Shown here in pieces: positions 27,111 through 64,000 of a DNA stretch of 64,000 nucleotides. The notes below the pieces were generated by a model. It was not told the origin of the DNA and made no database searches. It saw nothing but the letters and a program-made list of their open reading frames with translations. The translations under genes were made by a program, and so were the position numbers. Source of the DNA: the human T2T-CHM13v2.0 reference genome, Homo sapiens; the NCBI GenBank assembly GCA_009914755.4, contig CP086569.2:23680001-23744000 (forward strand). The letters run 5' to 3'. Positions within the stretch are counted from its first letter, which is position 1. Every line of letters begins with the position of its first letter.

Positions 27111-27214
27111 CCAATTTTCAATTTTAAATTAAACTTTCCCAAAAATAGAAATTACAAAACCCACAAATTACATGAAAATCCTGGCAATCTTTAAAAACAA
27201 GAAAAATATTAGAA

Positions 27215-27343: not shown

Positions 27344-32160
<4,817 letters not shown>

Positions 32161-42487: not shown

Positions 42488-45400
42488 GGGTGACACCTTG
42501 AACAGTGATCTTGGTGTGTATATGAGTCACATTGTCATGTGTGTGCTGCATCATTTTATGATGCCCTCTACAACATCGGAGGGCCTTACATAGTATGCAT
42601 GAGAGTTGCAAACTACACTGAGGCCCACACACTCATATAGACTCTCAAACTTATATAGTGCCTTAAACTCAGGTGTGATAGTCAACATCTCTCATTTAGG
42701 CTGAGCTCAGGAATGAGACTTATTTTTATGCTTTGAGCTGGCTCTGAAAATGAGACACGATCGAACCTGTGGCCAGATCCACAAATAAGAGTCACAATTC
42801 CATATTTGAAGTGTTTTTACCTGTTGAACTCAGTTCCTCAACAATGGGCTTTGTAAAAGTGGGATGGTGACAACTTTTACTTTCACCTGGGTGTCTAATT
42901 GAGAGTTACAATCTTAACTTTTTGCTAGGCCTTGTTATGAAACTCTCTGTACCACCAAAGGAGTTTGTACAATACTAATTAGTGTTGTAAACTACTCTGA
43001 GTTTGGTACAAATATGCAAACCAGGATTTTACCTATTGCTCTAAGCCTTGTGATTAGAGGCAAAATATCTTCTATTGGTTGAATCCCAATATAAGTTTGA
43101 CCATCATGCCTGCGAAGTGGAGCAAAGTATATGTCATAATCTCATTTGTGGACAAAAAAATTAGGAAAAATAATAACATCACTTAGGTTATGTGGTAAGC
43201 AACTTGTCACAATGCCTTCCCTAGGAAGAATATAGGGGGAGGGTCATATTAACTGGGAGCTGGGCCCAACAATATTACACAATTTTTCTTGAGAAAAAGA
43301 TTAACCAAGGGATGAGAGCCAAAACACCTAGAGAATAAGCTGAAGACCTGTAAAAATTGTGTCTGTGGCTCTGGAACCAGCAGGACAGTAGCATCATCAG
43401 GGTTCTGGGGCCACCATTCTGCAATAATTCTCATTTTATTCAGGACAGTAGCAGAAGAGTAACATCACCTGAGTGCAATAGGTCAAAATTGCTCTTTGTG
43501 TGCATGGTTCAGAATAAAGAGTAGAATCATATGACCTAAATGCTGGTCTCAGCAATATGTTCACAACCACCACCACCCCCACCATTTTGAAGGGTGACAG
43601 GAGAAGAGAGTCATATCACTTAGGTCATGGGGTCAGAGATAGGTCCCAAAGTCCTCAGTAGGCAGAACTAAGAAAGAAAAGGAGAGTAGTATCTCCTATG
43701 TGCTTCTTTATGTATAAGTCACAATCTAACACATGGGCAGAAACCAGGCAGAAGAGCCACATTACCTAGGTGCTGGGTGCTAAGATGTGTCACAGGTCCC
43801 CCTTAGAAGAGAAACAAAGTGAAAGAGTTACATCACCTTGGTGCAGGTTTCACTTTCGTATCACAATGCTCTCTGTGGGTGAGGCCCAAACATTGAGTCA
43901 TATCAACTAGGTGATAGGGCCAGAGATATGTCACAATGTCCTTTTTGAAGCATAGCCCTGGGGAAAGAGTACCATCATCTGTGTGCCTGGCCTAGAAATA
44001 TGTCACTCTCCAGGTTGGCAGGGACCAAGTAGAAGAGCGGCATAACCTAAGTGATACTACCAGAGATATGTCACAATACCCTCCTTTGGGCATGGCTCTG
44101 GCAAAAAAATATCCCCACCTGTGTGCCTGGCTTTGCAATATGTCACTATCCTTCCTTTGTGCAAGACCTATACCAGAAAGGAGAGTTACATCACCCAATG
44201 TGGTTGACCTAAAAGCTAAACCCAAAAATATGTCAAAATTCCTCTTGTTGAGAAGGTTCAGAAGAGAGTGTCATGTCATTTGGATGCAATGTTTAGAAAT
44301 GCTACAATTACTAAAGTAAGCTGGGTACATGCCAAAAAGGAGAGTCATATACCCCAGATAATGGGTCCAGAAATATGTGGCTAGTCCCCCTGAAAACATT
44401 GGTAAGGTAGCACCGTCAAATCACCAATGTCCGTGACCCAAGTTTTGTCAAAATCTCATTTGTGGGACGTACCTAGGTGGAAGTGTTAAATTTCACAGGC
44501 ACTAGACAAAGGTGTACATACAATTACACTTGTGGAAAGGTTTGAAAATAAGGCTCACCATCCTATACATGTCCTGGCTCCAGACATATGAGTTTTTATT
44601 AGTCTTTTATTATGGTCTCAGGTATATGACACCATATCTCCTGTAGTAAGAGAGAAGGCAAGAAAGTCACACCACCTATGTGGGTGCAGTTCCAGTGAGA
44701 TGTGACAATCCACCTGGTGGTCAGGACCCTGGAAGAAGAGTCACATCACCTGGAAGTTCCTTTTAGTGACATATGAAAAACCCGCCTGTGAGGGTTTTAA
44801 ACTCAGAACCTCAACAGTGGGTTTTCTAAATGTGGGATGGTTGCAACTTCTAATTTCACCCGGGGGTGTAGTAGAGACTTCCAATCTGAACTTTTTGCTG
44901 GCTCATGTTATGAAAATTTCTACCACAAAAGAGTTTATACAATGTAATTTAGTGGTGTAAGCTTCCTTGAGCTTGGTATAAACATGCAACCCAGGACCTT
45001 ACCTATTTCCACAAGCCTAACAATGAAAGGCAAAATATTTTCTATTGGCTGAATCCCAATATAAGTTTGATCATCATGGCTGTGAACTGAAGCAGTTATA
45101 TATTATAATTACATACGTGTGAAAAACACTAGGCAGGAGGGTAATGACATTTTGATGCTGTGCCAGGAAATACTTCACAATGTCTTCTCTAGGCAGGGTA
45201 TAGGAAATTGAGTCACATTAGCTGAATGCTGGACCCAGCAATATGATACAATCCTGCATATGGGAAAAGACTCAGCCAAGTTATGAGAGCCAAAATACCA
45301 GCACAGTATGCCCAAGATACATCAACATATCTTAGTAGCTCCAGCACAAGCAGGAAAGTCACATCATAAGGGTACTGGGACCAGCAATATGTAATATATC

Positions 45401-48400
45401 ATAATTAGCTCTTTATGCAGATTCCAGGTAGATGGTTAACATCATCTGGGTGCTGGGCAATGCAATAAGTCAAACTTTCTTTCCTGTGGGCATGGTTTGG
45501 GTAAAAGGAGAGAGTCACATATCCTAAGTACTGGGCTCAGCCATGTGCCAAAATCCTCCTATTGTGAATGATCGGGCAGAAAAGGAGAGTCACATCACTT
45601 AGGTCATGGGTTCAGAGATATGTCCTAATGTCCCCAGTAGGCAGGGCTCATGTAGAAGAGGAGAGGCCCATCACCTACGTGCTTCCCTAGGAATATGTCA
45701 CTTTGTGACTTGTGGGCAAAAACCAGGCAGAATAGCCACATCACTTGGGTGGTGGGTCCCGAGATACATCAAAGGCTCTCTTAATGCAGCACCCAGCCAA
45801 GAGAGAAACATCATACTAGGTGTATGTTTTCTGATTATACCACAATGCTCCATACGTGTAGGGCTCAAGGAGGGGATCATTTCACCTAGGTGATAGGCCC
45901 AGAGATAGGTCACCATGTCCACTATGAGGCAGAGCCCTGGCAAAAGAATACCATCACCTGTGTGCCTTGCCTAGAAATATGTAACTCTCAAGTTTGGAAG
46001 GGCCCAAGCAGTAAAGCCACATAACCTAGATGATAGGCCCAGAGATATGTCACAATGCCCTCCTTTGGGGATCCTCTGCAAAGGAATATCCTTGCCTGTG
46101 TGCCTGTTCTTGCAGTGTGTCACTATCCTTCTGTTGTACAGTGCCCATTTCAGAGAGAAGACTTACATCAACTATGAAGTGCACAGAGAAATATGTCACA
46201 ATAATTTTAGTGAGCCTGGCACAGGCAACTATGTAACATCACCAGGGTGCTAGATCCAGTGATATCTCACAATCTTTACTGAGAGATATGACCAGGTAGG
46301 AGAGTCATATCACCTCGATGTTGGCCTCGGTAGGAATCATAATCCCATATATGGGCTGGAACAAGTCTGGTGAGTCAAATTACACAAGTGCTTGGCAAAC
46401 ATTTATATCACAATCACACTGTCATAAAATTCCAAAGATGAGATTTACAATACCACACATGTCCTGTTTTCATGTGTGACAGTTGCCTTCATCCATGTGA
46501 GATGATAACAGTCCTTACCTTCAGCTGGGTGGGTATACAAGACTCAAAATTTCACCTGGGTGCTTAGCTCCAATTTGACTCTGACTGTATAGTCCAAAGA
46601 CTTTGTAAAATGTATGTGAGTGTTGTAATATTTTGTGACCTTTGTACAAGGAGGAGATCCAGGACATCAAACGTGTCCCTAAACTTAGTTATAAGGGTGA
46701 AAATATTCTCTATTTTCTGAGTCCACATATGAGAGTCATTATCATGCCTGTGAGCCATGCCTAGGTATATGTTACAATTCCCTCTGTGGTTATGAAGCAG
46801 GCAGAACAACCACATCACCTAAATGCTGGGCTAGAATTATTTCAAAAATTTTTTTTGTATTCTGTGCCCTATCAGAAATCTCACAAAACTTGTGTGATAG
46901 ATCCAGCTGTGTGGCACAATGTGCCTTGTGGGCAGTGTCCAGGCAGGAGAGGAGAGTAATATCACCTAAATGATGGGCACAAAAATATGTCAAAATGCCT
47001 ATTGTTGACAGGGCCCAGGCAAGGGGTCATATCATTTGGATGCAGTGTTTAGAAGAGCTACAATTACCAAAGGAAGCAGGGTACAGGCAAAAGAGGAGAG
47101 TCATGTAGATGAAGCATCCAAGAATCAGTTACAATCTCCCCTGAGGACATTTCTAAGGTACCTCAGTCAAACTACCAAAGTGCTTGGCCAATGTGTTTGT
47201 CAAAATCCCATTTATGGGCTATACTTTGGCAGAATTATTAAATAAGTCAGTAGTTGGGCAAAGGTATATGTCACAATTACACCTGTGGAAAGGCTTAATA
47301 GTAACAGCCACCATCCTGCACAAGTCCTAGGCTCCAGGCATATTAATTGTTATTAGGTTTCTGTTATAATCATTGCTTTATGGCACAATACCACTTGTGG
47401 CAAGAGAAAAAAAAAAAGCAAGCTTCATCACCTACGTGGGTGCAGTTCCAGTGAGATGTCACAATCCACCTTGTGGGAAGGACCTGGTGGAAGAGTCACA
47501 TCACCTGGATGCTAATTTCACGGACATATCAAAACCCCCTCTCTTGGCAGGACTTTGGTAAGAGAGGAGCCTCACTTCACCAAGGCCATTGGCCTAGATA
47601 TATGTCACAATGTCTGTTCAGTGCAGTACAGAAGCCAGAGAGTGGCCTCACATTAGTGCTGGGCCCAGCTTTATGTCACAATCTCCCTGTGGTCAAGGTA
47701 CAGGCAAAAGCCAAGAAACACCACCTAGGTTCTGATCCAAGTGACATGTTACAATGCTTCCTGTTAGCAGAACCCAAAAAGAAGAATTACATCAACTGGG
47801 TACAGTACATGGTTATGTGTCACAATGCACTGTAAGTGAAGGGCCAAAACAGTAGCAGGGAGCCACAACACTTATGTGATGGATCTAGATATAAAACACA
47901 ATTTTTTTGTAGGTAGTTTTATGAGTTTTATGCAGATAATGCACATCACCTGGGTGATGGTCCCAATGATATATAACAGTTCCCATTGTAGGCAGAGCCA
48001 TGAAACAAGGGATCTATTGCTTAGTCGCTTGTTCCACATATGGCCCAATTTCTTCCATGGTCTGGGCCTAGAAAAGAGTCATATTAGTCATGTGTTGGGA
48101 AAGTTATCTTGTTCCAATCACACTATCAGAAAGGTTCAGAAATAAATTTCACATCCCACACAAGTCCTGGTTTTGTTTATGTGAGTCAACTGTTCCTATG
48201 CATTGGGTTGAAGTAGAAGAGTCACAGTCTCAGCCTGGAACCAGATCCATGTATAAGATCCCCAATCCCACTTGAACACTGTGTTCCAGCAGGGGAGTCA
48301 GAGCACCACAGTGTGCTGAATCATGGTTCAAATGTTACAAAACCACCAGTGAATCAGATTCCTGAATTAGAGTAATTATTTCAACCTTCAACTGCTTTTT

Positions 48401-50265
48401 ATGTGTGAGATTTAGTGCCTCATTCCTAGGCCCTGTTCTGTGTGAGAATGACAATCATGCCAGCTAGATGTGCATACAAGAGTCCCATCTGCCCCTTGTT
48501 TCTGTTCTCTGTTTGACACTTTTTGTCATTAAGACTTCATATGATATATCTGAGTGTTATAATCCTTCATGAAGTTTATAAAAGTGAAAAATCCAGGACT
48601 TTACCCATGGCTCTGAGAGTCAAAATATTTCTACTGTGTGAGTCCAAGTATGAGGGTTATTATTTTGTGCACGTGTGCTTAACTAAGATATATGTTAAAA
48701 TTTCACCTGAGAGCAGGGAAAAGGTGTAGGGGTGGGTTGCCCCTACACACCTGTGGGTGTTTCTCGTAAGGTGGGACGAGAGATTTGGAAAAGAAAAAGA
48801 CACAGAGACAAAGTATAGAGAAAGAAATAAGGGGACCCGGGGAACCAGCGTTCAGCATATGGAGGATCCCGCCAGCCTCTGAGTTCCCTTAGTATTTATT
48901 GATCATCTGTGGGTGTTTCTCAAAGAGGGGGATGTGTCAGGGTCACAAGACAATTGTGGGGAGAGGGTCAGCAGACAAACACGTGAACAAAGGTCTTGGC
49001 ATCATAGACAATGTAAAGGATTAAGTGCTGTGCTTTTAGATATGCATACACATAAACATCTCAGTGCTTTACAAAGCAGTATTGCTGCCCGCAGGTCCCA
49101 CCTCCAGCCCTAAGGCGGTTTTTCCCTATCTCAGTAGATGGAGCATACAATCGGGTTTTATACCGAGACATTCCATTGCCCAGGGACAGGCAGGAGACAG
49201 ATGCCTTCCTCTTGTCTCAACTGCAAGAGGCATTCCTTCCTCTTTTACTAATCCTCCTCAGCACAGACCCTTTACGGGTGTCGGGCTGGGGGACGGTCAG
49301 GTCTTTCCCTTCCCACGAGGCCATATTTCAGACTATCACATGGGGAGAAACCTTGGACAATACCTGGCTTTCCTAGGCAGAGGTCCCTGCGGCCTTCCGC
49401 AGTTTTTGTGTCCCTGGGTACTTGAGATTAGGGAGTGGTGATGACTCTTAAGGAGCATGCTGCCTTCAAGCATCTGTTTAACAAAGCACATCCTGCACCG
49501 CCCTTAATCCATTCAACTCTGAGTTGACACAGCACATGTTTCAGAGAGCATGGGGTTGGGGGTAAGGTCATAGATTAACAGAATCTCAAGGCAGAAGAAT
49601 TTTTCTTAGTACATAACAAAATGGAGTCTCCTATGTCTACTTCTTTCTACACAGACACAGTAACAATCTGATCTCTCTTGCTTTTCCCCACAAAAAGGCA
49701 GGAGAGACATCACCTGGGTGCTGAGCTGCTGATACATTATAATCTCATTAATAGGGTGGGCCTATTTAGAAGAGTCACATCACCTGGATATAGCCTCAAA
49801 TAATATGTCCCCAAGCCCACTATAGAAAGGGAATAAGAAAAAGAGGAGTTACTCCACATAGGTGCTGTGCTCTGCAGTGTGTAATAATCCACTTTCTTGG
49901 CAGGGCCTAGCATATGAAGAAGAGTCACATCACATAGTTTCTGCAATAAGCAGTACATCAAAACTTTTTTGGTGAGCAGGACACAGGCAGGGGAGGAAAT
50001 CACATAACCTAGATGTTAAGCCAAACAATATTTCACAATGTGTTCTGATGGCAGTGCACAGGGAGGGGAGAAAAATCACCTAGCTTATAGGCCCAGAGAT
50101 ATGAGATAATTTGCCCTGTTGGCAGGGCTCAGGCAGAACAGTCACATTATTATAATTCTAACCCAGTGATATGTCACAATGCACCCAACAGAAAAAAAAT
50201 GTAATCCAAAAACTCACAACACCTGGTTACTAGGCCTAGTAATATGCCAAATCTTTTTGTCTTTG
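42488..50265. repeat. Higher-order repeat copy 3 (7.8 kb: expanded by a partial internal duplication of block A at ~44760-45190 and by the LTR5 insertion)
   Basis: Landmarks at 42488 (A), a second partial A at ~44760, 46510 (B), 48160 (D) and 48460 (C), then the LTR at 48725-49692. Confidence 0.65.
48725..49692 (-). mobile_element. Solo LTR of HERV-K (HML-2), LTR5-type (LTR5_Hs-like), 968 bp, antisense, flanked by a 6-bp target-site duplication AAAAGG (48719-48724 and 49693-49698)
   Basis: The sequence is TG...CA bounded (tgtaggggtgggttgcccctacacacctgtgggtgtttctcgtaaggtgggacgagagatttggaaaag ... ctcttgcttttccccaca). Its reverse complement matches what I recall of the LTR5 consensus (tgtggggaaaagcaagagag...gggcaacccacccctaca; internal gatcctccatatgctgaacgctggttccc, aataaatactaag). 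The satellite unit resumes immediately after the second AAAAGG. A 6-bp TSD is the ERVK integrase signature. Confidence 0.85.
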
Positions 50266-53200
50266 ATGTTGACACCATTGAATGTGAGCTGGGTTTGTAT
50301 ATGAGAGTCACAATTTTCCATGTTTCCTGGGCTGTTGTATGACACTCTACAACATTTTAAGGGTTTATACAGCACGTGTGAGAGTGGCAAACCACTCTGA
50401 CCCCTACATGGTAGTATAGATTCACGATCTTAACATATTGCCCTAAACCCAAGTTTTATAGTCAACATCTCTTCTGCAGGCTGGGTTAAGGAATGAGATC
50501 CATTGTCATGCCTGTGAGCTAGATGTAAAAATGAGTCGCTATCCCATCTGTGGTCAGATCCACATAGGAAGGTCAAAATTCCAACTTTCTACTGTATTTA
50601 CTTTTTAGACTCAGGACCTTAACAGTGGGCTTTGGCCATGTGGGATGGAAACATTTACTTTCACTTGGGTGCATAACCAAGAATCCCAATCTGAACATTT
50701 TGCTGGTTCTTGTCTTGAAACTCTCTGTACCACCCAAGGAGGTTATACACTATGAGTTAGTGCTGTAAAGCTCTGTGAGCTTCATACAAATATGCAACCC
50801 AGGGCCTTACCCATTGCCCAAAGCCTAGTGATGAGAGGCAAAATATCTCCTATTGGCTGACTCCAATATAAGTCTGATCACCAGGCCTGTGATCTCAACT
50901 AAGGCATATGTTGAGATCAAGGTATATGTCAGAGTCCCATTTGTGGGCAAAATGTATGCAGGAGGGTAACATCTCTTTGGTGCTGTGCCAAGCAACTTGT
51001 CACTATGTCCTCCCTTGCTTGGCAGGGTATAGGAATTAGAGTCATATTAAATTGGTGCTGGACTGAGCAAAACAAAACCATCCTACCTGTGGAAGAAACC
51101 CAGGCAAAAGATATCAGAACACCCACATGATGGGCCCAGGATGTGTCAAAATACCTTCTGTGGCTCCAGGACAGTCATGAGTCATGAGATAATGTCCTGC
51201 TCTCAACAGGAAATTATCAGAGTTTTGGCCCCAGCAATATGCCATACTTCTATCTGTATGCAGGACCCAGGCAAAAGAGAAACATCGCCTGGGTGCTGGA
51301 CCTTGCAATAGGCCAAAAATTCGGGTGGTGGGAATGGTTCCAGAAAATAAGGAGTGACAAATAACCTGACTTCTGACCTCTACGATATGTCACAATCCCT
51401 TCTTGTAAAGACCAGGCAGAAGCTGAAAGTCACTTCACTTCAGTCTTGGGCTCAGAGATACATCCCAGTGTCCTCATTATGAAGGGCCCACAAAGAAAAG
51501 TCATATCAACTAGGTGCTTCCCTAGTTATATGTCACAATCTAACATGTGGGCAGAAACCAGGCAGCAGAGCCACACCACCTGGGTACAGCCTCAAGTAAT
51601 ATGTCACTATGCCCAATGTAGACAGTTTACAGTAAAAAAAGAAAATCACACCACCTGGGTGCTGGGCTCAGCAATATGTAATAATTTCCTTTCTTGGTAG
51701 AGTTCAGGACAAAGAGAACATTAATGTCACCTAGGTTTTGCACTCAGTGGTATGTCACAATTTCTTCAGTGGGCAGGATCTGGCCAGGAGAGCAGAGACA
51801 CATTACCTAGATGCTGTATCTAACAATATGACACAGCTGGATATGGGAAGGCCATTGGCAAGAGAGATATATTACCTAGTCAATAGGCCCAGAGATATGT
51901 GAAAATATCCACTGTTTGCAGTTCCCAGGCAGAAAAGTCACATTATTATGATTCTGAACCATTTCTGAACCATGTAGCATTATGGCTCTGAACCATTTCT
52001 GAACCATGTAACATTATTATGATTCTGAACCATTTCTGAACCGTGTAAGAATGCCCTTCTGGAAAAGAATTTATTTTTATTGTTTTTATTTTTATTATTA
52101 TACTTTAAGTTCTAGGGTACATGTGCACAATGTGCAGGTTAGTTACATATGTCTACATGTGCCATGTTGGTGTGCTGCACCCATTAACTCATCATTTGCA
52201 TTAGGTATATCTCCTAATGCTATCCCTCCCCTCTCCCCCTACTCTATGACAGGCCCCAGTGTGTGATGTTCCCCACCCTGTGTCCAAGTGTTCTCATTGT
52301 TCAATTCCCACCTATGAGTGAAAATATGCTGTGTCTGCTTTTCTGTCCTTGTGATAGTTTGCTGAGAATGATGGTTTCCAGCTTCATCCATGTCCCTACA
52401 AAGGACATGAACTCATCCTTTTTAATGTCAGCATAGTATTCCATGGCATATATGTGCTACATTTTCTTAATCCAGCCTGTCATTGATGGACATTTGGTTG
52501 GTTCCAAGTCTTTGCTATTATCGGTAGTGCCACACTAAACATATCTGTGCATGTGTCTTTATAGCAGCATGATTTATAGTCCTTTGGGTATATGCCCAGT
52601 AACGGAATGGCTGAGTCACATGGCATTTCTTGTTCTACATCCTTGAGGTACTGCCAAACTGTCTTCCACAATGGCTGAACTAGTTTATGTCCCACCAACA
52701 GTGTAAGAAACTCTGATGACAGCTTCTTTTGCTGTGCAGAAGCTCTTTCATTTAATTAGCTCCTATTTGTCAATTTTGGCTTTTGTTGCCATTACTGTTG
52801 GTGTTTTAGTCATGAATCCTTGCCCATGCCTATGGCTTGAATGGTATTGCCTAAGTTTTCTTCTAGGGTTTTTATGGTTTTAGGTCTAACATTTAAGTCT
52901 TTAATCCATCTTGAATTAATTTTTGTATAAGGTGTAAAGAAGAGATCCAGTTTCAGCTTTCTACATATGGTTAGCCAGTTTTCCCAGCACCATTTATTAA
53001 ATAGGTAATCCTTTCCCCATTTCTTGTTTTTGTTAGGTTTGTCACAGATCAGATGGTTGTTGATGTGTGGCATTATTTTTGAGGGCCCTATTCTGTTCCA
53101 TTGGTCTATATCTCTGTTTTTGTACCAATACCAAGCTGTTTTGGTTGCTGTAGCCTTGTAGTGTAATTTGAAGTCAGGTAGCATGATGCTTCCAGCTTTG

Positions 53201-56200
53201 TTCTTTTGGCTTAGAATTGTCTTGGCAATGCAGGATCTTTTTTGGTTCCATATGAACTTTAAAGTAGGTTTTTCCAGTTCTGTGAAGAAAGTCATTGGTA
53301 GCTTGATGGAGATGGCATTGAATCTATGAGTCACCTTGGGCAGTATGGCCATTTTCCACAATATTGATTCTTCCTATCCATGAGCATGGAATATTCTTCC
53401 ATTTGTTCATGTCCTCTTTCATTTTGTTTAGCAGTGGTTTGTAGTTCTCCTTGAAGAGGTCCTTCACATCCCTTGTAAGTTGGATTCCTAGGCATTTTAT
53501 TCTCTTTGAAGCAATTGTGAATGGGAGTTCACTCATGATTTGGCTCTCTGTTTGTTATTGGTGTATAGGTCTGCTTGTGATTTTTGCACATTGCTTTTGT
53601 ATCCTGAGACTTTGCTGAAGTTGCTTATCAGCTTAAGGAGATTTTGGGCTGAGACGATGGGGTTTTCTAAATATACAATCATGTCATTTGCAAACAGGGA
53701 CAATTTGAGTTCCTCTTTTACTAATTGAATACCTTTATTTATTTCTCTTGCCTGATTGCCCTGGCCAGAACTTCCAACATTATGTTGAATGGGAGTGGTG
53801 AGAGAGGCCATCCCTGTCTTGTGCCAGTTTTCAAAGGGAATGCATCCATTTTTTGCCCATTCAGTATGATATTAGCTGTGGGTTTGTCATAAATAGCTCT
53901 TATTATTTTGAGATATGTCCCATCAATACCTAATTTATTGAGAGTTTTTAGCATGAAGTGCTGTTCTGTTTATATGATGGATAATGTTTATTTATTGGTG
54001 TATATTGAACCAGCCTTACTTCCAAAGGATGAAGCCGATTTGATCATGATGGATAAACTTTTTGATGTGCTGCAGTATTTTATTGAGGATTTTTGCATCG
54101 ATGTTTATCAGGGATATTGGTCTAAAATTATTTTTTGTTTTTCTGTCTTTGCCAGGCTTTGATATCAGTATGTTGTTGGCCTCATAAAATGAATTAGGGA
54201 GGATTCCCTCTTTTTCTGTTGATTGGAATAGTTTCAGAAGGAATTGTATCAGCTTTTCTTTGTACCTATGGTAGAATTTGGCTGTGAATCCATCTGGTCC
54301 TGGACTTTTTTTGGTTGATAGGCTATTGATTGCTGCCTCAATTTCAGAGTCTGTTATTGTTCTATTCAGAGATTCAACTCCTTCCTGGTTTAGTCTTGGG
54401 AGGGAGTGTGTGTCAAGGAATTTATCCATTTTTTCTAGATTTTCTAGTTTATTTGCCTAGAGGTGTTTCTAGTAGTCTCTGATGGTAGTTTCTATTTCTG
54501 TGGGATCAGTCATGATCTCCCCTTTGTCATTTTTATTGTGTCTCTTTGATTCTTCTCTCTTTTCTTCGTTATTAGTCTTGCTAGCAGTCTATCAATTTTG
54601 TTGATCTTTCCAAAGAACCAGCTCCTGGATTCACTGATTTTTTGAAGGGTTTTTTTGTGTCTCTAACTCCTTCAGTTCTGCTCTGATCTTAGTTATTTCT
54701 TACCTACTGCTAACTTTTGAATGTGTTTGCTTTTGCTTCTCTAGTTCTTTTAACTGTGATGTTAGGCTGTCGATTTTTGATCTTTTCTGCTTTCTCTTGT
54801 GGGCATTTAGTGCTATAAATTTCCCTCTACACACTGCCTTAAATGTATCCCCAAGATTCTGGTATGTTGTGTCTTTGTTCTCACTGGTTTCAAAGAACAT
54901 TTCATTTCTGCCTTCATTTCGTTATGTACCCAGTAGTCATTCATAAGCAGGTTGTTCAGTTTCCATGTAGTTGAGCGGTTTTGAGTGAGTTTCTTAATCT
55001 TGACTTCTTGCTTGATTGCACTGTGGTCTGAGAGACAGTTGGTTATAATTTGTGTTCTTTTACATTTGCTGAGGAGTGCTTTACTTAAAACTGTGTGGTC
55101 AATTTTGGATTAAGTTTGATGTGGTGCTGAGAAGAATATATATCTGTTGATTTGGAGTGGAGAGTTCTGTAGATGTCTATTAGGTCCACTTGGTGCAGAG
55201 CTAAGTTCTATTCCTAGATATCCTTTTAACTTTCTGTCTCGATCTGTTTAATGTTGATAGTGGGGTGTTAAGGTCTCCCATTATTACTGTGTGGGAGTCT
55301 AAGTATGTTTGTAGGTTTCTAAGGACTTGCTTTATGAATCCGACTGCTCCTGTATTTGATGCATATATATTTAGTAAAGTTAGCTCTTCTTATTGAATTG
55401 ATCCCTTTACCGTTATGTATTGGTCGTCTTTGTCTCTTTTGATCTTTGTTGGTTTAAAGTCTGTTTTATCAGAAACTAGGATTGCAACCCCTGTTTTTGT
55501 TTTTGTTTTCTTTTTCTTTTTTTTTCATTTGCTTGGTAAATCTTTCTCCATCCCTTTATTTTGAGCCTATGTGTGTCACTGCACGTCAGATGGGTCTCCT
55601 GAATACAGCACACTGATGGGTCTTGACTCTTTATCCAATTTGCCAGTCTGTGTCTTTTAATTGGAACATTTACCCCATTTACACTTAAGGTTAATATTGT
55701 TATGTGTGAATTTGATCCTGTCATTATGATGTTAGCTTGTTATTTTGCTCATTAGTTGATGCAGTTTCTTTGTAGCATTGATGGTCTTTACAATTTGACA
55801 TGTTTTTGCAGTGGCTTGTACCAGTTGTTCCTTTCCATGTTTAGTGCTTCCTTCAGGAACTCTTGTAAGGCAGACCTGGTGGTGACAAAATTTCTCAGCA
55901 TTTGTTTGTCTGTAAAGGATTTCATTTCTCCTTCACTTATGAAGCTTTATTTGGCTGGATATGAAATTCTGGGTTGAATATTATTTTCCTTAAGGATGTT
56001 GAATATTAGCCCCCACTATCTTCTGGCTTGTAGAGTTTCTGCCAATAGATCCACTGTTAGTCGGATGGGCTTGCCTTTCTGGGTAACCTGACCTTTCCTT
56101 TGGCTCCCTTAACATTTTTTCCTTCATTTCAACTCTGGTGAATCTGACAATTATTTGTCTTGTTGTTGCTCTCCTCGAGGAGTATCTTTTAGGCATTCTC

Positions 56201-57876
56201 TGTATGTTTTTGAATTTTAATGTTGGTCTGCCTCACTACATTGGGGAAATTCTCCTGGATAATATCCTGCAGAGTGTTTTCCAACTTGGCTCCATTCTCC
56301 CCATCTCTTTCAGGTACACCAATCAGATGTATATTTGGTCTTTTCATGTAGTGCCATATTTCTTGGAGGCTTTGTTCATTTCTTTTTACTCTTTTTTCTC
56401 TAAACATCTCTTCTTGCTTTATTTCATTCATTTGATCTTCAATCACTGATATCCTTTCTTCCACTTGACAGAATTGGCTACTGAAGCTTGTACATGCATC
56501 ACATAGTTTTCATGTCATGGTTTTCAGCTCCATCAGGTCATTTAGGGACGTCTCTACACTGTTTATTTTAGTAGACATACATCTAATCTTTTTTTCAAAG
56601 TTTTTAGCTTCTTTGCGATGGGTTCGAACATCCTCCTTTAGCTCAGAGAAATTTGTTATTACCAATCATCTGAAGCCTTCTTCTCTTGACTCGTCAAAGT
56701 CATTCTCCATCCTGCTTTGTTCCATTGCTGGTGAGGAACTGCATTCCTTTGGAGGAGAACAGGCACTCTGATTTCTAGAATTTTCAGCTATTCTGCTCTG
56801 GTGTCTCCCCATCTTTGTGGTTTTATCTACTTTTGTTCTTCGATGCTGATGTATAGATGGGGTTTTTGTGTGGATGTCCTTTCTGTTTGTTAATTTTCCT
56901 TCTAACAATTAGGACCCTCAGTTGCAGGACTGTTGGAGTTTTCTGGAGGCCCACTCCACACCCTGTTTGCCTTGGTATCACCAGCAGAAGCTGCAGAACA
57001 GCAAATATTGCCGAACAGCAAGTATTGCTGCCTGATCATTCCTCTGGAAGCTTCAACTCAGAGGGGCACCCAGTTGTGTGAGGTGTCAGGTGGCCCCTAC
57101 TGGGAGGTGTCTTCCACTTAGGCTACTCGGGGTTCAGGTACCAGTCTGTCCATTCTCAAATCTCAAACTCTGTGCTGGGAGAACCACTACTCTCTTCAAA
57201 GCTGTCAGACAACAATGTTTAAGTCTGCAGAAGTTTCTGCTACCTTTTGTTCATCTATGCCCTGCCCCCAGGGGTGGAGTCTACATAGGCAGGCAGGCCT
57301 CCTTGAGGTGAGGTGGGATCCACCCAGTCCAAGCTTCCTTGCCACTTTGTTTACCTAGTGAATCCTCAGTAATGGCAGATCACCCTCCCCCAGCATTGTT
57401 ACCACCTTGCAGCTCAATCTCAGACTGCTATGCTAGCAGTGAGTGAGGCTCCATGGGCAGGGGACCCTCTGAGCCAGGCACGGGATGTAATCCCCTGGTG
57501 TGCCATTTGCTAAGGCCAGTGGAAAAATGTAGTTTTAGGGTGGGCATGACCCAATTTTCTGGGTACCATCAGTCACGGCTTCCCTTTGCTGGGAAAGGGA
57601 ATTCCCCAATCCCTTGCATTTCCCAGGTGAGGCAATGCCCCTCCCTGCTCTGTGGGCTGCACCCACTGTCTGACAAGCCCCAGTGAGATGAACTTAGTAC
57701 CTCAGTTGGAAATGCAGAAGTCACCCACCTTCTGCATTCCTCACACTGGTAGCTGCAGACTGGAGCTGTTCCTATTCTGCCATCTTGGAAGCTCCTCCCT
57801 GGAAAAGAATTTAAACCAAAAAGTCTCAACACTGGGGTGCCAGGTGAAGGATATGACACAGTCTCCTCAACTATAA
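50266..57876. repeat. Higher-order repeat copy 4. Only ~1.87 kb of native sequence (A block plus ~14 basic units), lacking B, D and C, and split by the 5.7-kb L1 insertion
   Basis: A at 50266. Native sequence runs to 52073 and resumes at 57799. The 80 bp after the L1 (…aaccaaaaagtctcaacactggggtgccaggtgaaggatatgacacagtctcctcaactataa) is the pre-A segment seen at 32590, 37600 and 42440. Confidence 0.65.
52074..57798 (-). mobile_element. Full-length older L1 (L1PA-type; 5' end gggaggagcttccaagatggcagaatag), 5.7 kb, inserted in the satellite with a ~15-bp TSD (C)TGGAAAAGAATTTA at 52059-52073 and 57799-57813. ORFs heavily degraded
   Basis: 3' end in antisense at 52074-52200 (t-rich tail, then ctttaagttctagggtacatgtgcacaatgtgcaggttagttacatatg). 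5' end in antisense at 57770-57798 (ctattctgccatcttggaagctcctccc). Minus-strand ORF fragments 52810-53361, 53533-53811, 53739-53954, 54016-54429, 55476-55724 and 56189-56464 are ORF2 and ORF1 pieces. Uninserted HOR copies carry the undisrupted target c(c/a)tggaaa(g/a)(a/c)aatt..agccaaaa at 32570, 37575 and 42415. Confidence 0.9.
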
Positions 57877-60800
57877 GGGTGACACCATTAACTATTACCT
57901 AGTTGTGTATATGTCAGTCACAAACTCACATGGGTGCTGGCCATAGTATGACACTCTATACAACATCTGAGAACTTTATATAACATGCATGAGAGTTGAA
58001 ACCTCACTGAGGCCTACATGCTTATATGGACTCACGATCTTACATATTGCACTAAACTCAGATATGACAGTCAACATCTCTCTTATATGCTGGCTTCAAG
58101 GATGACAGCATTATTGGGTTTGTGAGCTGGGTCCAGAACTGAGTGACCATCCCACCTGTGGCCAGATTCTTTGATAAAAATTACAATTTCATCTTTGTGC
58201 TGTGTTTACTTATTAGATTGAGGACCTCAACAATGAACGTTGTAAACGCAGGATGGTAATAACTTTTACTTTCACATGAACGTGTTGTGTAAAATCATGA
58301 TACTAACATTTTTCTGGACCCTGTTATAAAATTCTCTACCACCTAAAAAGTTTTTGTGAGATGAGTTATTGTTGTAAAATTCTGTGAGCTTGTTCACATA
58401 TGCAATTAAAGGCTTTACCTACTGACTTAAACCTAGTCATGAAAGGCAAAACGTCTCGTACTGGCTGAATCCCAATAGAAGCATGATCATCATGCTTTTG
58501 AACTGAAGAAAGGTATATGTTATAATCAAATTTGTGGGCAAAAAAAATCGGCAGGAGGTTGATATCACTTAGGTGTTGTGGCAAGAAGTATGACACAATG
58601 CCTTGTCTATGCAGGTCTTAGGAAAGAGGGTCACAATAATTGGGCTCTGGAGCCAGCAATATAACACAACTTCACATAGAAGAAACCCAGCAAAATAAGG
58701 AGACTCAAAACACCTATGGAAATGGGCCAAAGGTATATCAAAATACCTGCTCTGGCTCTGGCACAGGCTGGAGAGTCACATCATTAGTGTGCTAGGCCCA
58801 GAAATATGCTGAAATTCCCTCTTTATGCACGACCTAGGAATAAGTGTAACAGAATCCAGGTGTGGGGCCCTGAACTACAGCAAAAGTCCTGTTTGTAGGC
58901 AATTTTTGGCAACATGATGAGAGTCACATTACCTAATTGCTGGGCTCATCAACACATCACAATCTTCTCATTGTAAAGGCTTAGACAGAATAAGAGACTC
59001 ACATCACTTAGGTCATGGGCTCAAAGATATGGCCCAATGCCACAAGTAGGCAATACTCAGGCAGAAATAAAGAGTCATAACACCTAGATGCTTTTTCAGG
59101 TATATGTCACAATTTCACCTGTGTCCAGTCCTTCCATCCAGTCCTTTCTGTCAGCTGGGTGTGCATACAAGACTCACAATTTCAGCTGTGTGCTGAGCCC
59201 TGCTTTGACTCTGTCTGTATAACCCAAAGACTTTGGAAAATACATGTGAATGTTGTAATCTTTTGTGACCTTTGTAGAAGAAGGCGATACAGGACATCAT
59301 GCATGTCCCTAAATCTAGTTATAAGTGTCAAAATATTCTCTATAGGCTGAGTACACATATGAGAGTCATTATCACTCCTGTGAGTCATGCCTAGGTATCT
59401 GTTACAATATTCTCTGTGGTTATAAAGCAGGAAGAATAGTCATATCACCTAAATGCTGGACTGTACATATTCCAATATTCTCTTTGTAGGCAGGGTCCTG
59501 TCAGAAATCTCACATAATTTCTGTGCTAAATCCAGCTCTGTGGCACAATGTCCCTTGTGGGTAGTGTCCAGACAGAAGAGGAGAGTCATATCACCTAAAT
59601 GTTGGCCCCAAAAATATGTCACAATGACTAATGTTGACAGGGCCCAGAAAAACGAGTCATATCATTTGGATATAGTGTTTAGAAATGCTACAATTACCAA
59701 AGCGAGCTGGGTACAGGCAGGAGAGGGGAGTCATGTAACCTAGGTGATGTGTCCAGAAATATGTTACAATATCCCCTGAGGACATTGTTAAGACAGCAAG
59801 AGTCAAATCACCAAGGTGCTTGGCCCAGGCATTTGACAAAACCTCATTTGTGGGTGATACCTAGGCAGAATTATTAAATCACTCAGGAGCAGTGCAAAGG
59901 TTTATGTCATGATTACACTTGCGGAAACGTTTAAGAATAAGAATAACTCTCCTGAACATATCCTGGCTTCAGGTATATAAGCTGTTACTAGGCTTTTGTT
60001 ATGGTTTCAGGTATATGGCACAATATCACCTCTGGTCAGAGAGAATGCAAGAAAGTCACATCACATAAGTGGCTGTGGCTCCAGTGAGATATCACAATCC
60101 ACCTTGTGGACAGGACCTTTGCAGAAGAGTCACATCACCTGGATGCTGGTTTCAGTGACAAAAACCTCCTTGTAAACATGACTTTGGAAATAGAGGAGAC
60201 TCAATTAACCTAGGCAATTGGCCTAGACATATGTCACAATGGCCCTTATGTACAGTGCCAAGGCTGGAGAGTTACCTTACGTTGGTCAGTGGGTTTGGCA
60301 ATATGTCACAATCTCCCTGTGGCTGGGGCACAGGCAAAAGTGAAGAAACATCACCTTAGGTTCTGAGCCAAGTGATACGTTACAAGGTTTCCTGTTGACA
60401 GAATGCAAAAAGGAGAATCCCATCCCCTGGATGAAGTTCCCAGTTATGTGACACAATGCACTGTAACTGCAGGGCCAAGGCAGTACAAGGGAGTCACATC
60501 ACTTACCTGATGGACCTAGATATAGAACACAATTGTCTTTGTAAGCAGGCTTCAGGCAGATAATTCACATGACCTGGGTGATGGTCTCAGTAATATATTA
60601 AAGTGACCTTTGTAGGCAGAGTCAAGGAAGATATCATATATTGCTTTCATGTTTGTTCCACATATGGCACAATTTCATCTGTGGTCTGAGCCTAGAAAAG
60701 AGAGTCCCGCTATTTATGTGCTGGGCAAAGTTACCTGTCCCAATCACATGCTAAGAAAGGTTTGGAAATAATTTCACATCACACACAAGTCCTGGTTTCA

Positions 60801-60890
60801 CATATGTGAATCAATCCTATTTATGTTAGGCTAAACTAGAGGACTCACAATCTCAACAGTGGACAGGATCCATGTATAAGAGCTCCGATA
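57877..60890. repeat. Higher-order repeat copy 5 (3.0 kb, truncated at the orientation switch)
   Basis: Landmarks at 57877 (A), 59140 (B) and 60780 (D). The ggatccatgtataagag segment that elsewhere continues into cccacttgaagatggtg is cut at ~60890 and joined to the opposite-orientation block. Confidence 0.65.
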
Positions 60891-60894
60891 ACAT

Positions 60895-63800
60895 ATTATG
60901 TCAATGAGATTGTGTCATATCACTGGACCTAGTAACCAGGTGTTAAAACTTTTGCTTAAATTGTTTCCCGTGTGTGCATTGTGAGACTCTTCTGCCAGGG
61001 CACTGCCTAAAGGAGATATTGTCACATATCTATGAGCCTATCCACTAGGTGATTTGTCAATTTTACCTGTGCTTTGCTCCCAAAGAACATTATGACATCT
61101 TTTAATGTATCATTTAGGAAATGTGACTTCTCTCTCCTGCCTAGGTCCTGTGCTCTAAAGAAATAGGTACATAGTGCTGAATGCAAAATTTAAATAATGC
61201 AACTCTGCTCTTTATTCTGGAGTCTGCCAACAGAGGACATTTTTAAATATTGTTGAGTCTAACACCTTGAAGCTGCACCCAGATGATATGACTCTTCTGA
61301 CTTGGCACTACCTGCAGAAGAGATTATAATGTATTCTCAGCTCAGAATCCTGGTGATGAGAGTCTCCTACCTTGGTTCTGCCCACAGGAGAAATAGTGAC
61401 ATATACCTGGGTTCAGCTCACATGCACAAATACAGCTGTTATATCTAGACCCAGAAAGAAGAGATATTTTGACATTCTTAACCAGTCTTATGGCCATAAG
61501 TAAAGCAATGGGTCTACTAATTGTATAAAGTTCACAGAGGACTATGACACTCAGGCATATGATATACAGCCTGAATGGTACAAAGGATGTCCTAACAGGG
61601 ACAGTAACCCAGTGCTATTGTGACTCATGTACATACGATCAGCTGATCCTACTGTCATTCTCTCACAAGAATAGCCCCTACAAATAAGGTACTAAATCTC
61701 ACACAAAACAGCTGTCCCTGGTTGAAACTGTTCCTCTCATACATGTGTCTGGTCCACGGGTCTTTTGGTGATGCATGATTCAGCACACCTGTGAAGCTGT
61801 GACTCCCCTCCTGGAACACAATCTTAAAGTGGAATTGGGCATCTTATGCATGGATCATGCTCACTGTTGAGACTGTGACTCCTCTACTTTGGCCCAAGTC
61901 ATAGGGGGTGTTGACTCACATACACAAAGCTGGGATTTGTGTGGGACTGTGAAACTTATATCTGAATATATCCTAGTGTGTGATTAGGACATAAAAGTTA
62001 GCCCAGCTTCTGAATAACTTGACTCTCATTTTTAGGCCATAACCACAGATAAAATTGTGACATGCCTGGACCATGCCCCTAAGCATAGGTGCCTGGGCCT
62101 GCCTACAAATTACACTTTTACATATCACTGGGACCAGCACCAAGGTGATTTGAATTATCTGCCTGAGTGCTGCCCAAGAAGAGCACTGTGGCTGATATCT
62201 AGGTCCATCAGGTAAGTGATGTGACTCCCTTCTCCTGCCTTGGCCCTGCACTTATGGAGCATTGCAACACACAACTGGGTTCTGCACCCAAGTGATGTGA
62301 CTCTCCCTTTTGGGTTCTGCCAATGAGAAGCTTTGTAACATATCACTTTGCTCATCACCTAGGTCATGTTTCTCCTCTCTTCTCTCGACCTGATCACAGG
62401 GGAGATTGTGACATATTGATAAACTCAGCACCAAGGTGTAGTCACTTTCTTACCTTGGTTTTGCACACAGCAGCCATTGTGACATATACCTATGCCAACT
62501 GCCTTGGTTAAGTGAGCCTCCTCTCTTTCTTAAGCCCTTCCCACAGGTGGGATTTTGATATATCACCAAAAACAGTATCCAGTTGATGTGATTCTTCTTT
62601 CAGAGTCCTGCCCACAAGATGGATTGTGACATCTCACAGGACCAGCACCCACCCAGGTGATGTGACCTTCCCACTTGCTCTCCACTCACAGCCGATGTTG
62701 TGACATATACCTGAGATGAGATAAGAGGACTGACTAATCATGACTCTTAAATATGGAGCCAGGTCATATGCTATATGGTGACTCCCATTCCTGAAGCATT
62801 TCACTAATGTTATTGCGACATACACAATTGTCCAGCTCCTGAGTGATTTAATAATCCTGCCAAGGTGTAGTCCACAAGTGAGATTCACCTATATATTTCA
62901 GCTGCTCACCTTGGTGATTTGACTCTCCTGTCTTAACAATATCCCCAGGAAGAATTGTAACATGTCTCTGAATCCATCTTCTAGGTTACCTGTCTCCCTG
63001 CCTTGCCTCCTCTGCCTGGACTCTGCTTCCACAGGGATTGTAGCATTTTTTTCTTTTCTTTTCTTTTCTTTCTTTTTTTGTTACCTAGGCTGGAGTGCAG
63101 TGGTGTGATCTTAGCTCATTGCAACCTCTGCCTTGGGGATTGTAGCATTTCTAAGCACTGCATGCAAATGACATGACTCTCCTGACTGGTTCCTTCAACA
63201 GAAGGCATTGTTGCACATCTCTCGGCCAATAATTTAAGTTATATGACTCTCCTCTTCTGCCTAGACACTGCTTAAAAGGGGCATTGTGTCATACATCTGG
63301 TTGACACCCCCAAGTTATGCAACTTTTCGTCCAGGAACTTTTCTACAAGTAGAATATTTGAAAAATTCTTGTTCAATAGTTAGGTGACTTGGCAGTCACA
63401 CCTGCTTCATTACCACAGAGTAAATTGTGATATATAACTAGGCACAACTCACAGGCATAATAATGACTCTCATACCCCACAAATAGGAGTAATTTTGACT
63501 CTCACTACTTGCTTTAGAAACATGAGTGATTGAATCTCTCTGCTTTAAAAAAAGGCCACAGAAGATTATAATAGCCTCAGAAATTTTATAAAGCCCTTGG
63601 CTTGTACAGAGAGTGCAATAACAGAATACAACAGAGAGTGTGATAACAGAATACAGAGAGTGCATGGTGAGTCTCATACACACACTCAGCTGGCAGTAAA
63701 GACTGTCACCATCTCATATATATGAAGCCACATGTCACTCCTGAAAACAGGATATGTGTGGGATTGTAAATCTCATCCTGGGAATTTTCTGTAAGTGTGA

Positions 63801-64000
63801 GATAAATATTTGCCGAGTACCTTGTGATTGGACTCTCCAAACTTTTTTCATCCCACATATGTAATTGTGATATGTACCTTGAATAACCTCCAGGTGATGT
63901 GACTGTCCTGCCTGAGCCTTGCTGTCAGTAAGAATCATGACATACCACTAGATCCAGCACCCTGGTCATGTTACATTTTTGCCTGAGCCCTGCCTACAGA
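60895..64000 (+). repeat. Same ~71-bp satellite family in the opposite orientation (attgtgacatat...caccaaggtgatgtgactctcct...ctgcc.acag), continuing past the window end
   Basis: attgtgacatat-type cores at 61016, 61090, 62044, 62115, 62331, 62403, 62474, 62546, 62616 and 62696, with spacing of 70-80 bp. The units are reverse complements of the 32.3-60.9 kb units: ccagcacccaggtgatgtgac against gtcacatcacctgggtgctgg. Confidence 0.85.
63049..63135 (-). mobile_element. Very short Alu 3'-terminal fragment (~55 bp) with a (TTTTC)n/T tail, flanked by a 15-bp TSD GGGATTGTAGCATTT (63034-63048 and 63136-63150)
   Basis: The insert is ttttcttttcttttcttttctttctttttttgttacctaggctggagtgcagtggtgtgatcttagctcattgcaacctctgcctt, which is the antisense of the last ~55 nt of an Alu plus its tail. 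Identical 15-mers flank the insert. Confidence 0.7.

What the first reader, a model, noticed from the sequence alone, without database searches (positions are those of the whole stretch)
60850..60960. Abrupt orientation switch of the satellite: the array meets a reverse-complement copy of its own family at ~60,890
Up to 60,890 the units read gtcacatcacctgggtgctgg...atatgtcacaat. From 60,895 to the window end they read attgtgacatat...ccagcacccaggtgatgtgac, which is the exact reverse complement. The switch truncates higher-order copy 5 inside block D (…ggatccatgtataagagctccgataac | atattatgtcaatgagattgtgtcatatcactggacc…). The window therefore contains a very large imperfect inverted repeat: 28.6 kb in one orientation against at least 3.1 kb in the other, plus a 0.37-kb patch at 400-770. 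This is the footprint of an inversion breakpoint inside a satellite. Such junctions can extrude hairpins or cruciforms and are candidate fragile or rearrangement-prone sites.
Basis: seen in the sequence. Interest (0 to 1): 0.6.

Follow-up and report, generated by a model that had tools for sequence, protein, structure and literature searches.

The report
Old strand switch in beta satellite
A decayed ~71-bp satellite array next to a zinc-finger pseudogene really does flip orientation at about 60,890, but this is an ancient, asymmetric rearrangement scar of a kind already described for human beta satellite, and it cannot form a hairpin or cruciform.

Summary
Monomers of a ~71-bp satellite lie on the + strand from 32,290 to 60,884. 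That run is interrupted only by an Alu, a solo LTR and a full-length L1. Monomers lie on the - strand from 60,922 to the window end. Paralogue alignments put the join at 60,889-60,893.

The satellite looks like highly diverged beta satellite arranged in ~4.8-5.1 kb higher-order units. It sits beside a ZNF91-type zinc-finger pseudogene. This matches the published picture of the 19p12 ZNF cluster, which is interspersed with beta-satellite blocks, and T2T work already counts strand switches in beta satellite.

- The arms are 67-83% identical, not "exact".
- The join is asymmetric. It is about 1 kb out of register in the higher-order unit, and the nearest inverted arms are 926 nt or more apart.
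- The inverted block is sister to unit B, 18-20 kb away (K2P 0.247), not to the adjacent unit F (0.371).
- DNA folding across the join equals that of one-orientation controls: -126.5 kcal/mol against -647 for a perfect palindrome.

So this is an old inverted duplication or inversion, joined non-homologously and now inert. It is not a plausible cruciform or fragile site. Interest is low.

The parts
32290..52059 (+). Satellite array in + orientation. Monomers are about 71 bp, arranged in higher-order units A 32,280-37,320, B 37,321-42,128, C 42,129-44,796 (partial), D 44,797-49,917, E 49,918-41,741-equivalent end at 51,741 (short), and the start of F from 51,742.
   Evidence: Monomer HMM hits. 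Modal monomer spacing is 70-72 bp. Self-BLAST shows collinear units at 67-78% identity.
57800..60892 (+). Continuation of unit F after the L1 insertion. It is cut off by the junction at higher-order phase about 4,136 of 4,808 (coordinates of unit B).
   Evidence: 57,797-59,111 matches 32,562-33,884, and 59,139-60,889 matches 46,509-48,266 at 78%. The phase is continuous across the L1. '+' homology ends at '...ccgataa'.
60889..60893 (.). Head-to-head junction (strand switch). The homology from the two sides overlaps by 4 bp or less ('taac'). An extra 6 bp, 'tatgtc', lies just inside the - arm at 60,897-60,902.
   Evidence: Alignments A1 and A2 against paralogous units. A '+' monomer at about position 53 is joined to a '-' monomer at about position 26-32.
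60889..64000 (-). Inverted satellite block R, cut by the window end. It is collinear with the reverse complement of 42,476-39,425 (start of unit C plus the end of unit B).
   Evidence: 60,906-61,266 matches 42,476-42,087 (72%), 61,266-63,048 matches 42,024-40,259 (79.6%) and 63,134-64,000 matches 40,275-39,425 (73%). K2P B-R is 0.247, against 0.32-0.39 for other pairs.
319..924 (-). Reverse-oriented copy of the left edge of the array (monomers at 449-772) plus about 140 bp of its non-satellite flank.
   Evidence: 319-924 matches 32,754-32,144 on the minus strand at 77%. '-' monomer hits lie at 449-772.
898..2887 (-). Left arm of the non-satellite inverted repeat that continues from the satellite edge.
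   Evidence: 898-1,014 matches 27,219-27,109, 1,025-2,087 matches 26,777-25,698 and 2,107-2,887 matches 25,066-24,302, all minus strand at 75-77% and collinear.
24302..32289 (+). Right arm of that inverted repeat (24,302-27,219 and 32,144-32,289). It is split by a later Alu (about 26,795-27,100) and an L1 (27,343-32,103).
22200..23210 (-). Degenerate C2H2 zinc-finger exon (pseudogene with stops and a frameshift, 84-bp finger period). No KRAB exon was found in the window.
   Evidence: TRF period 84. Translation. Pfam zf-H2C2_2 at 1.8e-24 and zf-C2H2 at 2.3e-11. No KRAB by tblastn. The hits with the highest identity carry ZNF91-subfamily names.
52074..57799 (-). Full-length L1 inserted into the + array, flanked by the 14-bp target-site duplication TGGAAAAGAATTTA.
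   Evidence: Self-BLAST to the other L1 copies. Target-site duplication at 52,060-52,073 and 57,800-57,813.
48725..49692 (-). Solo LTR (968 bp) inserted into unit D. Its termini match HERV-K LTR5 ends as I remember them. It is flanked by AAAAGG on both sides.
   Evidence: No paralogue in the window. Terminal matches and flanks. The family assignment rests on memory.

Best explanation
The junction at 60,889-60,893 is an old structural scar. It lies inside a decayed beta-satellite-like block next to a ZNF91-type zinc-finger pseudogene.

Proposed history:
1. A ~4.8-5.1 kb higher-order unit of ~71-bp monomers was first amplified in one orientation. Units differ by K2P of about 0.32-0.39.
2. Segmental duplications then reshuffled the block. 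Two were measured at K2P of about 0.25, and other pairs show similar BLAST identity. Some were direct (D to F; part of A to the start of D). At least two were inverted: B to R, and [2 kb of flank plus the array edge] to 319-2,887.
3. The inverted copy R was joined to the truncated unit F by a non-homologous or microhomology join, with 4 bp or less of overlap. The join is out of register at both the monomer and the higher-order level.
4. Since then both arms have decayed (CpG observed/expected about 0.1) and taken up an Alu, a solo LTR and an L1.

Today the junction does nothing mechanical. The arms are too diverged and too far out of register to pair.

Shown directly: the strand switch, its position, the asymmetry, the sister relationships, the flank inverted repeat and the absence of fold potential. 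Inferred: the order and number of events, the joining mechanism and the age. K/2mu gives tens of millions of years. The chromosomal address 19p12 is also inferred.
For: - Strand switch and position.
- Higher-order collinearity of R with units B/C over 3.1 kb.
- K2P B-R 0.247 and D-F 0.246, against 0.32-0.39 for all other pairs. Best-paralogue painting.
- A collinear inverted repeat of non-satellite flank plus array edge, with later Alu and L1 insertions in one arm only.
- The junction is out of register by about 1 kb of higher-order phase and about 20-27 monomer positions.
- No hairpin potential.
- ZNF pseudogene with ZNF91-subfamily affinities.
- Literature. Beta satellite has a 68-bp monomer, forms higher-order repeats and occurs on chromosome 19 (PMC8125562). 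The 19p12 ZNF cluster is interspersed with beta-satellite blocks (PMC3018141 citing Eichler 1998). [quoted passage not shown]
Against: - The window ends 3.1 kb into the inverted arm. Its full length, its far end, and whether it mirrors the + arm are unknown.
- A direct duplication followed by a conservative inversion would produce the same sister relationship.
- Gene conversion between units could distort the distances.
- The beta-satellite assignment rests on monomer length, higher-order organisation and a consensus recalled from memory (55/71 identical). The classical Sau3A site is mostly absent.
- The 19p12 address could not be tested. Some of the closest ZNF names (ZNF92, ZNF138, ZNF679) belong, to my knowledge, to the related 7q11.21 cluster.
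- Eichler 1998 could not be read. I cite its content only from its title, from citing papers and from memory of its abstract.
Confidence: 0.6

Rival explanations
1. Simple conservative two-break inversion of a stretch of a once uniformly oriented array. 60,890 is one of its two breakpoints and the other lies beyond the window end.
For: The strand switch cuts a higher-order unit out of register, with little or no homology at the join. This is what an inversion by non-homologous breakage and rejoining would give. Strand switches in satellites are routinely called inversion breakpoints.
Against: Block R has a retained + copy (unit B) that is distinctly closer to it (K2P 0.247) than any other unit (0.37-0.39), including its neighbour F. 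Another inverted pair in the window, 75-81% identical by BLAST, carries non-satellite flank and is plainly a duplication. Neither observation excludes a direct duplication followed by an inversion.
Confidence: 0.25
2. Fold-back (hairpin-capped break or breakage-fusion-bridge type) inverted duplication centred on 60,890. This would have created a true palindrome that has since decayed.
For: It produces head-to-head satellite blocks. From my memory of the Eichler 1998 abstract, the 19p12 blocks are described as inverted with a symmetrical higher-order structure.
Against: - The sequences flanking the join are not each other's closest relatives: F-R K2P is 0.371 against B-R 0.247.
- Higher-order phase differs by about 1 kb across the join.
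- No symmetric centre exists anywhere in 60,700-61,500.
Confidence: 0.05
3. The junction is a currently active non-B DNA (hairpin or cruciform) element and a fragile or rearrangement-prone site.
For: Opposite-oriented monomers give a slight excess of long-range pairing in a 1-kb fold. The z-score is -2.83 with only 20 shuffles, and 132 of 324 pairs cross the join.
Against: - The 1-kb minimum free energy of -126.5 kcal/mol lies inside the range of single-orientation array controls (-118 to -132.5). A perfect palindrome of the same left arm gives -647.
- The 301-nt fold has z = 0.07.
- The nearest arms are 73 nt at 77% with a 926-nt spacer.
- Arms at 67-83% identity are also, from general knowledge, poor substrates for homologous recombination between them.
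- The review literature requires high arm similarity and a short spacer.
Confidence: 0.03
4. Assembly artefact: a mis-join of two satellite contigs in opposite orientation.
For: Satellite regions are classic sites of misassembly, and no read data are available here.
Against: Units differ by 20-33%, so the sequence is effectively unique at read length. Transposon insertions have intact target-site duplications. Each arm is internally collinear with the paralogous units right up to the join. A second, independent inverted copy of the array edge lies at the other end of the window.
Confidence: 0.03

Closest known systems
Inverted beta-satellite blocks bounding ZNF91-family duplicons in human 19p12 (Eichler et al. 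1998, Genome Res 8:791, PMID 9724325)
   Same: - A block of diverged ~70-bp satellite about 29 kb long, with kilobase-scale higher-order structure.
- It lies next to a ZNF91-type zinc-finger (pseudo)gene.
- It meets a block of the opposite orientation.
- The cassette is bracketed by inverted satellite edges.
- Citing papers confirm that 19p12 is interspersed with beta-satellite blocks.
   Different: I could not read the paper or map the window, so identity with the published locus is unproven. The part of the - arm visible here is not a mirror image of the adjacent + arm. Whether the block as a whole is 'symmetrical' cannot be seen from this window.
Strand switches ('inversion breakpoints') catalogued in human satellite arrays by the T2T consortium (Altemose et al., bioRxiv 10.1101/2021.07.12.452052)
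   Same: It is a change of monomer strand inside a beta-satellite-type array. Like other diverged arrays, it is accompanied by transposon insertions.
   Different: [quoted passage not shown] The present array is much more diverged (67-83% between units) and is embedded in a gene-family cluster rather than in a large homogeneous pericentromeric array.
Cruciform-forming palindromes and closely spaced inverted repeats that act as fragile sites (e.g. inverted Alu pairs, palindromic AT-rich repeats; reviewed in PMC7999016)
   Same: Only the formal property of being an inverted repeat.
   Different: The arms are 67-83% identical rather than near-identical. The spacer is 926 nt or more rather than 0 to tens of nt. 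There is no symmetric centre and no excess folding energy.

Membership tests
Beta satellite (Sau3A / BSR family) | Tandem monomers of about 68 bp | tested here: met
   Modal anchor spacing is 70-72 bp and the HMM consensus is 71 bp. There are 242 monomer hits. The literature gives 68 bp.
Beta satellite (Sau3A / BSR family) | Sequence similarity to the family consensus | tested here: inconclusive
   55 of 71 positions are identical to a consensus I recalled from memory. The alignment score is 75, against -11 +/- 7 for shuffles. No reference sequence was available in any tool or held paper.
Beta satellite (Sau3A / BSR family) | One Sau3A (GATC) site per monomer, giving a 68-bp ladder | tested here: not met
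   There are only 0.07-0.16 GATC sites per 71 bp, no more than in non-satellite DNA of the window. This fits a highly diverged, CpG-depleted old array. The feature defines the historical assay rather than the homology.
Beta satellite (Sau3A / BSR family) | Multimeric higher-order repeat organisation | tested here: met
   Units of about 4.8-5.1 kb are collinear over kilobases at 67-83% identity.
19p12 ZNF / beta-satellite duplicon architecture | A ZNF91-subfamily gene or pseudogene adjacent to the satellite block | tested here: met
   A degenerate finger exon lies at 22.2-23.2 kb. The highest-identity hits are primate proteins named ZNF429-like, ZNF431, ZNF726-like, ZNF506, ZNF92 and ZNF138. 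That these names belong to the ZNF91 subfamily is my own knowledge.
19p12 ZNF / beta-satellite duplicon architecture | Satellite blocks of about 25-30 kb in inverted orientation | tested here: met
   The + arm spans 32.3-60.9 kb (28.6 kb including about 7 kb of insertions) and abuts a - arm of at least 3.1 kb. An inverted array edge lies at 319-924. The block size quoted from Eichler 1998 is from memory of the abstract.
19p12 ZNF / beta-satellite duplicon architecture | Chromosomal location 19p12 and symmetry of the whole block | not testable with these tools
   No human reference genome is available. The - arm is cut by the window end.
Cruciform / hairpin-forming palindrome (fragile site) | Near-identical arms | tested here: not met
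   Identity is 67-83%.
Cruciform / hairpin-forming palindrome (fragile site) | Short or absent spacer with a centre of symmetry | tested here: not met
   The nearest arms are 926 and 1,479 nt apart. The best symmetric centre gives 39% complementarity against a 26% background.
Cruciform / hairpin-forming palindrome (fragile site) | Folding energy well above composition-matched or one-orientation sequence | tested here: not met
   z = 0.07 at 301 nt. At 1 kb the energy is -126.5, against -118 to -132.5 for controls and -647 for a perfect palindrome.
Fold-back inverted duplication | Junction-proximal arms are each other's closest relatives and in register | tested here: not met
   F-R K2P is 0.371 against B-R 0.247. 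The phase offset is about 1 kb.

The most novel reading that the evidence does not exclude
The + / - junction could be the exact seam at which neighbouring ZNF duplicons were joined. The same non-homologous join would then be copied into many paralogous 19p12 units, making it a datable marker for the order of ZNF91-family expansion. Alternatively, despite its decay, it could be a site of recurrent structural polymorphism in human populations. Nothing in the window excludes either reading, because the paralogous loci and other haplotypes could not be examined.
Probability: 0.08. Interest if true: 0.4.

Novelty: already known. Interest (0 to 1): 0.12.

Why it matters
It matters little on its own. 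The junction is a correct structural annotation, useful for satellite strand tracks and for reconstructing how ZNF cassettes and their satellite borders were duplicated.

The practical value is negative. This strand switch should not be listed as a candidate non-B DNA or fragile site, because the arms are too diverged and too far out of register. The sister relationships (B-R, D-F, left patch to array edge) do give a small, testable handle on the order of duplication events in the block.

Tried and rejected
- Eichler 1998 could not be read by DOI or PubMed id, and Waye & Willard 1989 could not be read by PMC id. None is held.
- I searched papers for monomer sequence strings to obtain an independent beta-satellite reference. 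The only hit was one unrelated paper. The FSHD beta-satellite paper prints no sequence in its text.
- I scanned metagenome contigs and genome contigs for a 33-mer spanning the junction, hoping for an independent assembly of the locus. There were no hits.
- TRF with default settings detects almost none of the array, because the monomers are too diverged. A custom monomer HMM was needed instead.
- A tblastn search for KRAB A and B boxes, using remembered sequences, found nothing. The zinc-finger remnant is therefore an isolated finger exon within this window.
- Independent seeding of two arrays was considered and rejected, because the - block is collinear with the + higher-order unit over 3.1 kb.
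- Fold-back origin, active cruciform and misassembly were also considered and rejected. See the rival explanations.
Full report
**What the window is.** The window is primate-type DNA. It carries four L1 copies (about 2.9-6.5 kb on -, 10.6-16.6 kb on +, 27.3-32.1 kb on + and 52.1-57.8 kb on -) and several Alus. A degenerate C2H2 zinc-finger exon lies on the - strand at 22.2-23.2 kb. It has an 84-bp finger period, stops and a frameshift, and Pfam matches to zf-H2C2_2 (1.8e-24) and zf-C2H2 (2.3e-11). No KRAB exon was found. The database hits with the highest identity are primate proteins named ZNF429-like (53%), ZNF431 (50%), ZNF726-like (49%), ZNF506 (47%), ZNF92 and ZNF138. To my knowledge these are members of the ZNF91 subfamily.

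**The observation.** BLAST of 60,891-64,000 against the rest of the window gave 48 minus-strand and 4 plus-strand alignments. The best was 61,266-63,048 against 42,024-40,259, at 79.6% over 1,786 bp. The four plus-strand hits fall in the reverse-oriented patch at the window start or come from an Alu fragment.

Its consensus is ATATGTCACAATGCCTCCTGTGGGCAGGGCCCAGGCAAAAGAGTCACATCACCTAGGTGCTGGGCCCAGCA (71 bp). The HMM found 208 '+' and 34 '-' monomers.
- '+' monomers run from 32,290 to 51,956 and from 57,797 to 60,884.
- '-' monomers run from 60,922 to 63,999 and from 449 to 772.

The strand switch is therefore real and far beyond chance.

**Position and anatomy of the join.** Aligned with paralogous + units (48,160-48,340 and 41,360-41,540), the left side stays homologous up to '...ggatccatgtataagagctccgataa' at about 60,892, and then diverges. 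Aligned with the reverse complements of 42,400-42,580, 32,520-32,700 and 37,560-37,740, the right side is homologous from 'taacatat' at about 60,889. It carries an extra 'tatgtc' at 60,897-60,902.

The join therefore lies within 60,889-60,893, with at most 4 bp of overlap. It connects a + monomer at about model position 53 to a - monomer at about position 26-32. There is no shared homology at the join, as expected for a non-homologous or microhomology-mediated event. That mechanism is an inference.

**Higher-order structure.** Self-alignment shows units of about 4.8-5.1 kb:
- A: 32,280-37,320
- B: 37,321-42,128
- C: 42,129-44,796 (partial)
- D: 44,797-49,917
- E: 49,918-51,741 (short)
- F: 51,742-60,889

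Unit F is interrupted by a full-length L1 at 52,074-57,799. The L1 has a 14-bp target-site duplication, and the array phase is continuous across it.

The inverted block R is collinear with the reverse complement of 42,476-39,425. In unit-B coordinates, the + arm stops at phase about 4,136 of 4,808, while the - arm starts at phase about 360 of the next unit. The two sides are thus about 1 kb out of register. This is why the nearest inverted arms are 926 nt apart (73 nt at 77%) and 1,479 nt apart (263 nt at 79%).

**Relationships between units.** K2P distances were computed on a MAFFT alignment of the segment shared by A, B, D, F and R.

| Pair | K2P |
|---|---|
| B-R | 0.247 |
| D-F | 0.246 |
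| F-R | 0.371 |
| All other pairs | 0.32-0.39 |

Tile-by-tile painting agrees. R at 61.3-63.3 kb is 77-83% identical to B and 67-77% to every other unit. The start of D is sister to part of A (76-83%). The left patch is sister to the start of A (75-81%).

The inverted homology at the left of the window also extends beyond satellite. Segments 319-924, 898-1,014, 1,025-2,087 and 2,107-2,887 match, in order and on the minus strand, 32,754-32,144, 27,219-27,109, 26,777-25,698 and 25,066-24,302, at 75-77%. An Alu and the 27.3-32.1 kb L1 are inserted in the right arm only. The zinc-finger cassette is therefore bracketed by an inverted segmental duplication made of 2 kb of flank plus the array edge.

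These data favour duplications on top of an older higher-order array, with the two measured sister pairs at K2P of about 0.25. Some duplications were direct and at least two were inverted. A single conservative inversion is less likely, but a direct duplication followed by an inversion cannot be excluded. Independent seeding of two arrays is excluded by the 3.1-kb higher-order collinearity. A fold-back origin is disfavoured, because the two sides of the join are neither in register nor closest relatives.

**Age.** Several features mark the structure as old:
- divergence of 17-33% between units;
- CpG observed/expected of 0.06-0.13;
- insertions of an Alu (about 36,259-36,534), a solo LTR (48,725-49,692, with termini matching HERV-K LTR5 from memory), an L1 and an Alu fragment (63,045-63,134).

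K/2mu, with K = 0.25 and mu = 1.2-2.2e-9 per site per year, gives roughly 55-100 million years. This is a rough inference, probably inflated by CpG decay.

**Hairpin, cruciform or fragility.** None of the tests supports this reading.
- The 301 nt centred on the join fold no better than shuffles: -28.4 against -28.6 +/- 3.7 kcal/mol, z = 0.07.
- The 1 kb centred on the join gives -126.5 kcal/mol (z = -2.83 with only 20 shuffles).
- That value lies inside the range of four 1-kb controls taken from single-orientation array (-118.1 to -132.5). A synthetic perfect palindrome of the same left arm gives -647.1.
- No centre between 60,700 and 61,500 gives more than 39% complementarity over 300-bp arms, against a background of 26 +/- 2.7%.

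The review PMC7999016 states that risk rises with arm length and similarity and with short or absent spacers. It also reports that in eukaryotic cells inverted Alus stall replication with a 12-bp spacer but not frequently with a 52-bp spacer. The fragile-site reading is therefore not supported.

**Comparison with what is known.** The monomer length, the higher-order organisation and a 55/71 match to the beta-satellite consensus as I remember it point to a highly diverged beta satellite. The reference was not independently available, and the classical Sau3A site is mostly lost.

Reviews state that beta satellite has 68-bp monomers arranged in higher-order repeats and occurs on chromosome 19, citing Eichler 1998. 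Another paper states that the 19p12 Kruppel-type ZNF cluster is interspersed with beta-satellite blocks. As I remember the abstract, which I could not read here, Eichler 1998 describes ~25-30 kb inverted beta-satellite blocks bounding ZNF duplicons.

The T2T centromere paper annotates satellite strand genome-wide and counts inversion breakpoints per family. [quoted passage not shown] The feature is thus a member of a known and common class.

**Verdict.** It is a real rearrangement junction, more likely an inverted duplication than a plain inversion. It is ancient, asymmetric and structurally inert. Novelty: already known. Interest: low.

Noticed in passing
window 319-2,887 vs 24,302-32,754: A large, collinear inverted segmental duplication at 75-77% identity. 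It is made of the satellite array edge plus about 2 kb of non-satellite flank, and it brackets the zinc-finger pseudogene cassette. The right arm was later split by an Alu and a 4.8-kb L1.
   Followed up: yes
window 22,200-23,210 (- strand): A degenerate C2H2 zinc-finger exon of about 11 fingers with stops and a frameshift. Several fingers carry 'CEEC', and the best-identity hits are primate ZNF91-subfamily proteins. No KRAB exon is present in the window.
   Followed up: partly
window 52,074-57,799 (- strand): A full-length L1 inserted cleanly into the satellite, with the 14-bp target-site duplication TGGAAAAGAATTTA (52,060-52,073 and 57,800-57,813). A 34-bp tandem repeat (51,940-52,048) lies just before it.
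   Followed up: partly
window 48,725-49,692 (- strand): A 968-bp insertion with no paralogue in the window. Its ends match HERV-K LTR5 termini as remembered, and AAAAGG flanks both sides. It is probably a solo LTR, which would imply a hominoid genome.
   Followed up: partly
window 63,045-63,134: A truncated Alu fragment preceded by a T-rich tract (its poly-A tail on the - strand) interrupts the inverted satellite block. It accounts for two of the four plus-strand BLAST hits.
   Followed up: partly
window 36,259-36,534: An Alu-like insertion inside higher-order unit A of the + array.
   Followed up: no
window 46,509-48,266 vs 59,139-60,889, and 32,980-34,387 vs 44,797-46,203: Direct sister segments at about 78% identity lie inside an array whose other units are about 70% identical. 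Unit D is a mosaic: its start is related to A and its later part to F. This shows that segmental duplications were layered on an older higher-order array.
   Followed up: partly
window 10,632-16,645 and 27,343-32,103: Two + strand L1 copies are 91% identical over 4.8 kb. I could not tell whether they are independent insertions of one subfamily or part of a duplicated segment.
   Followed up: no
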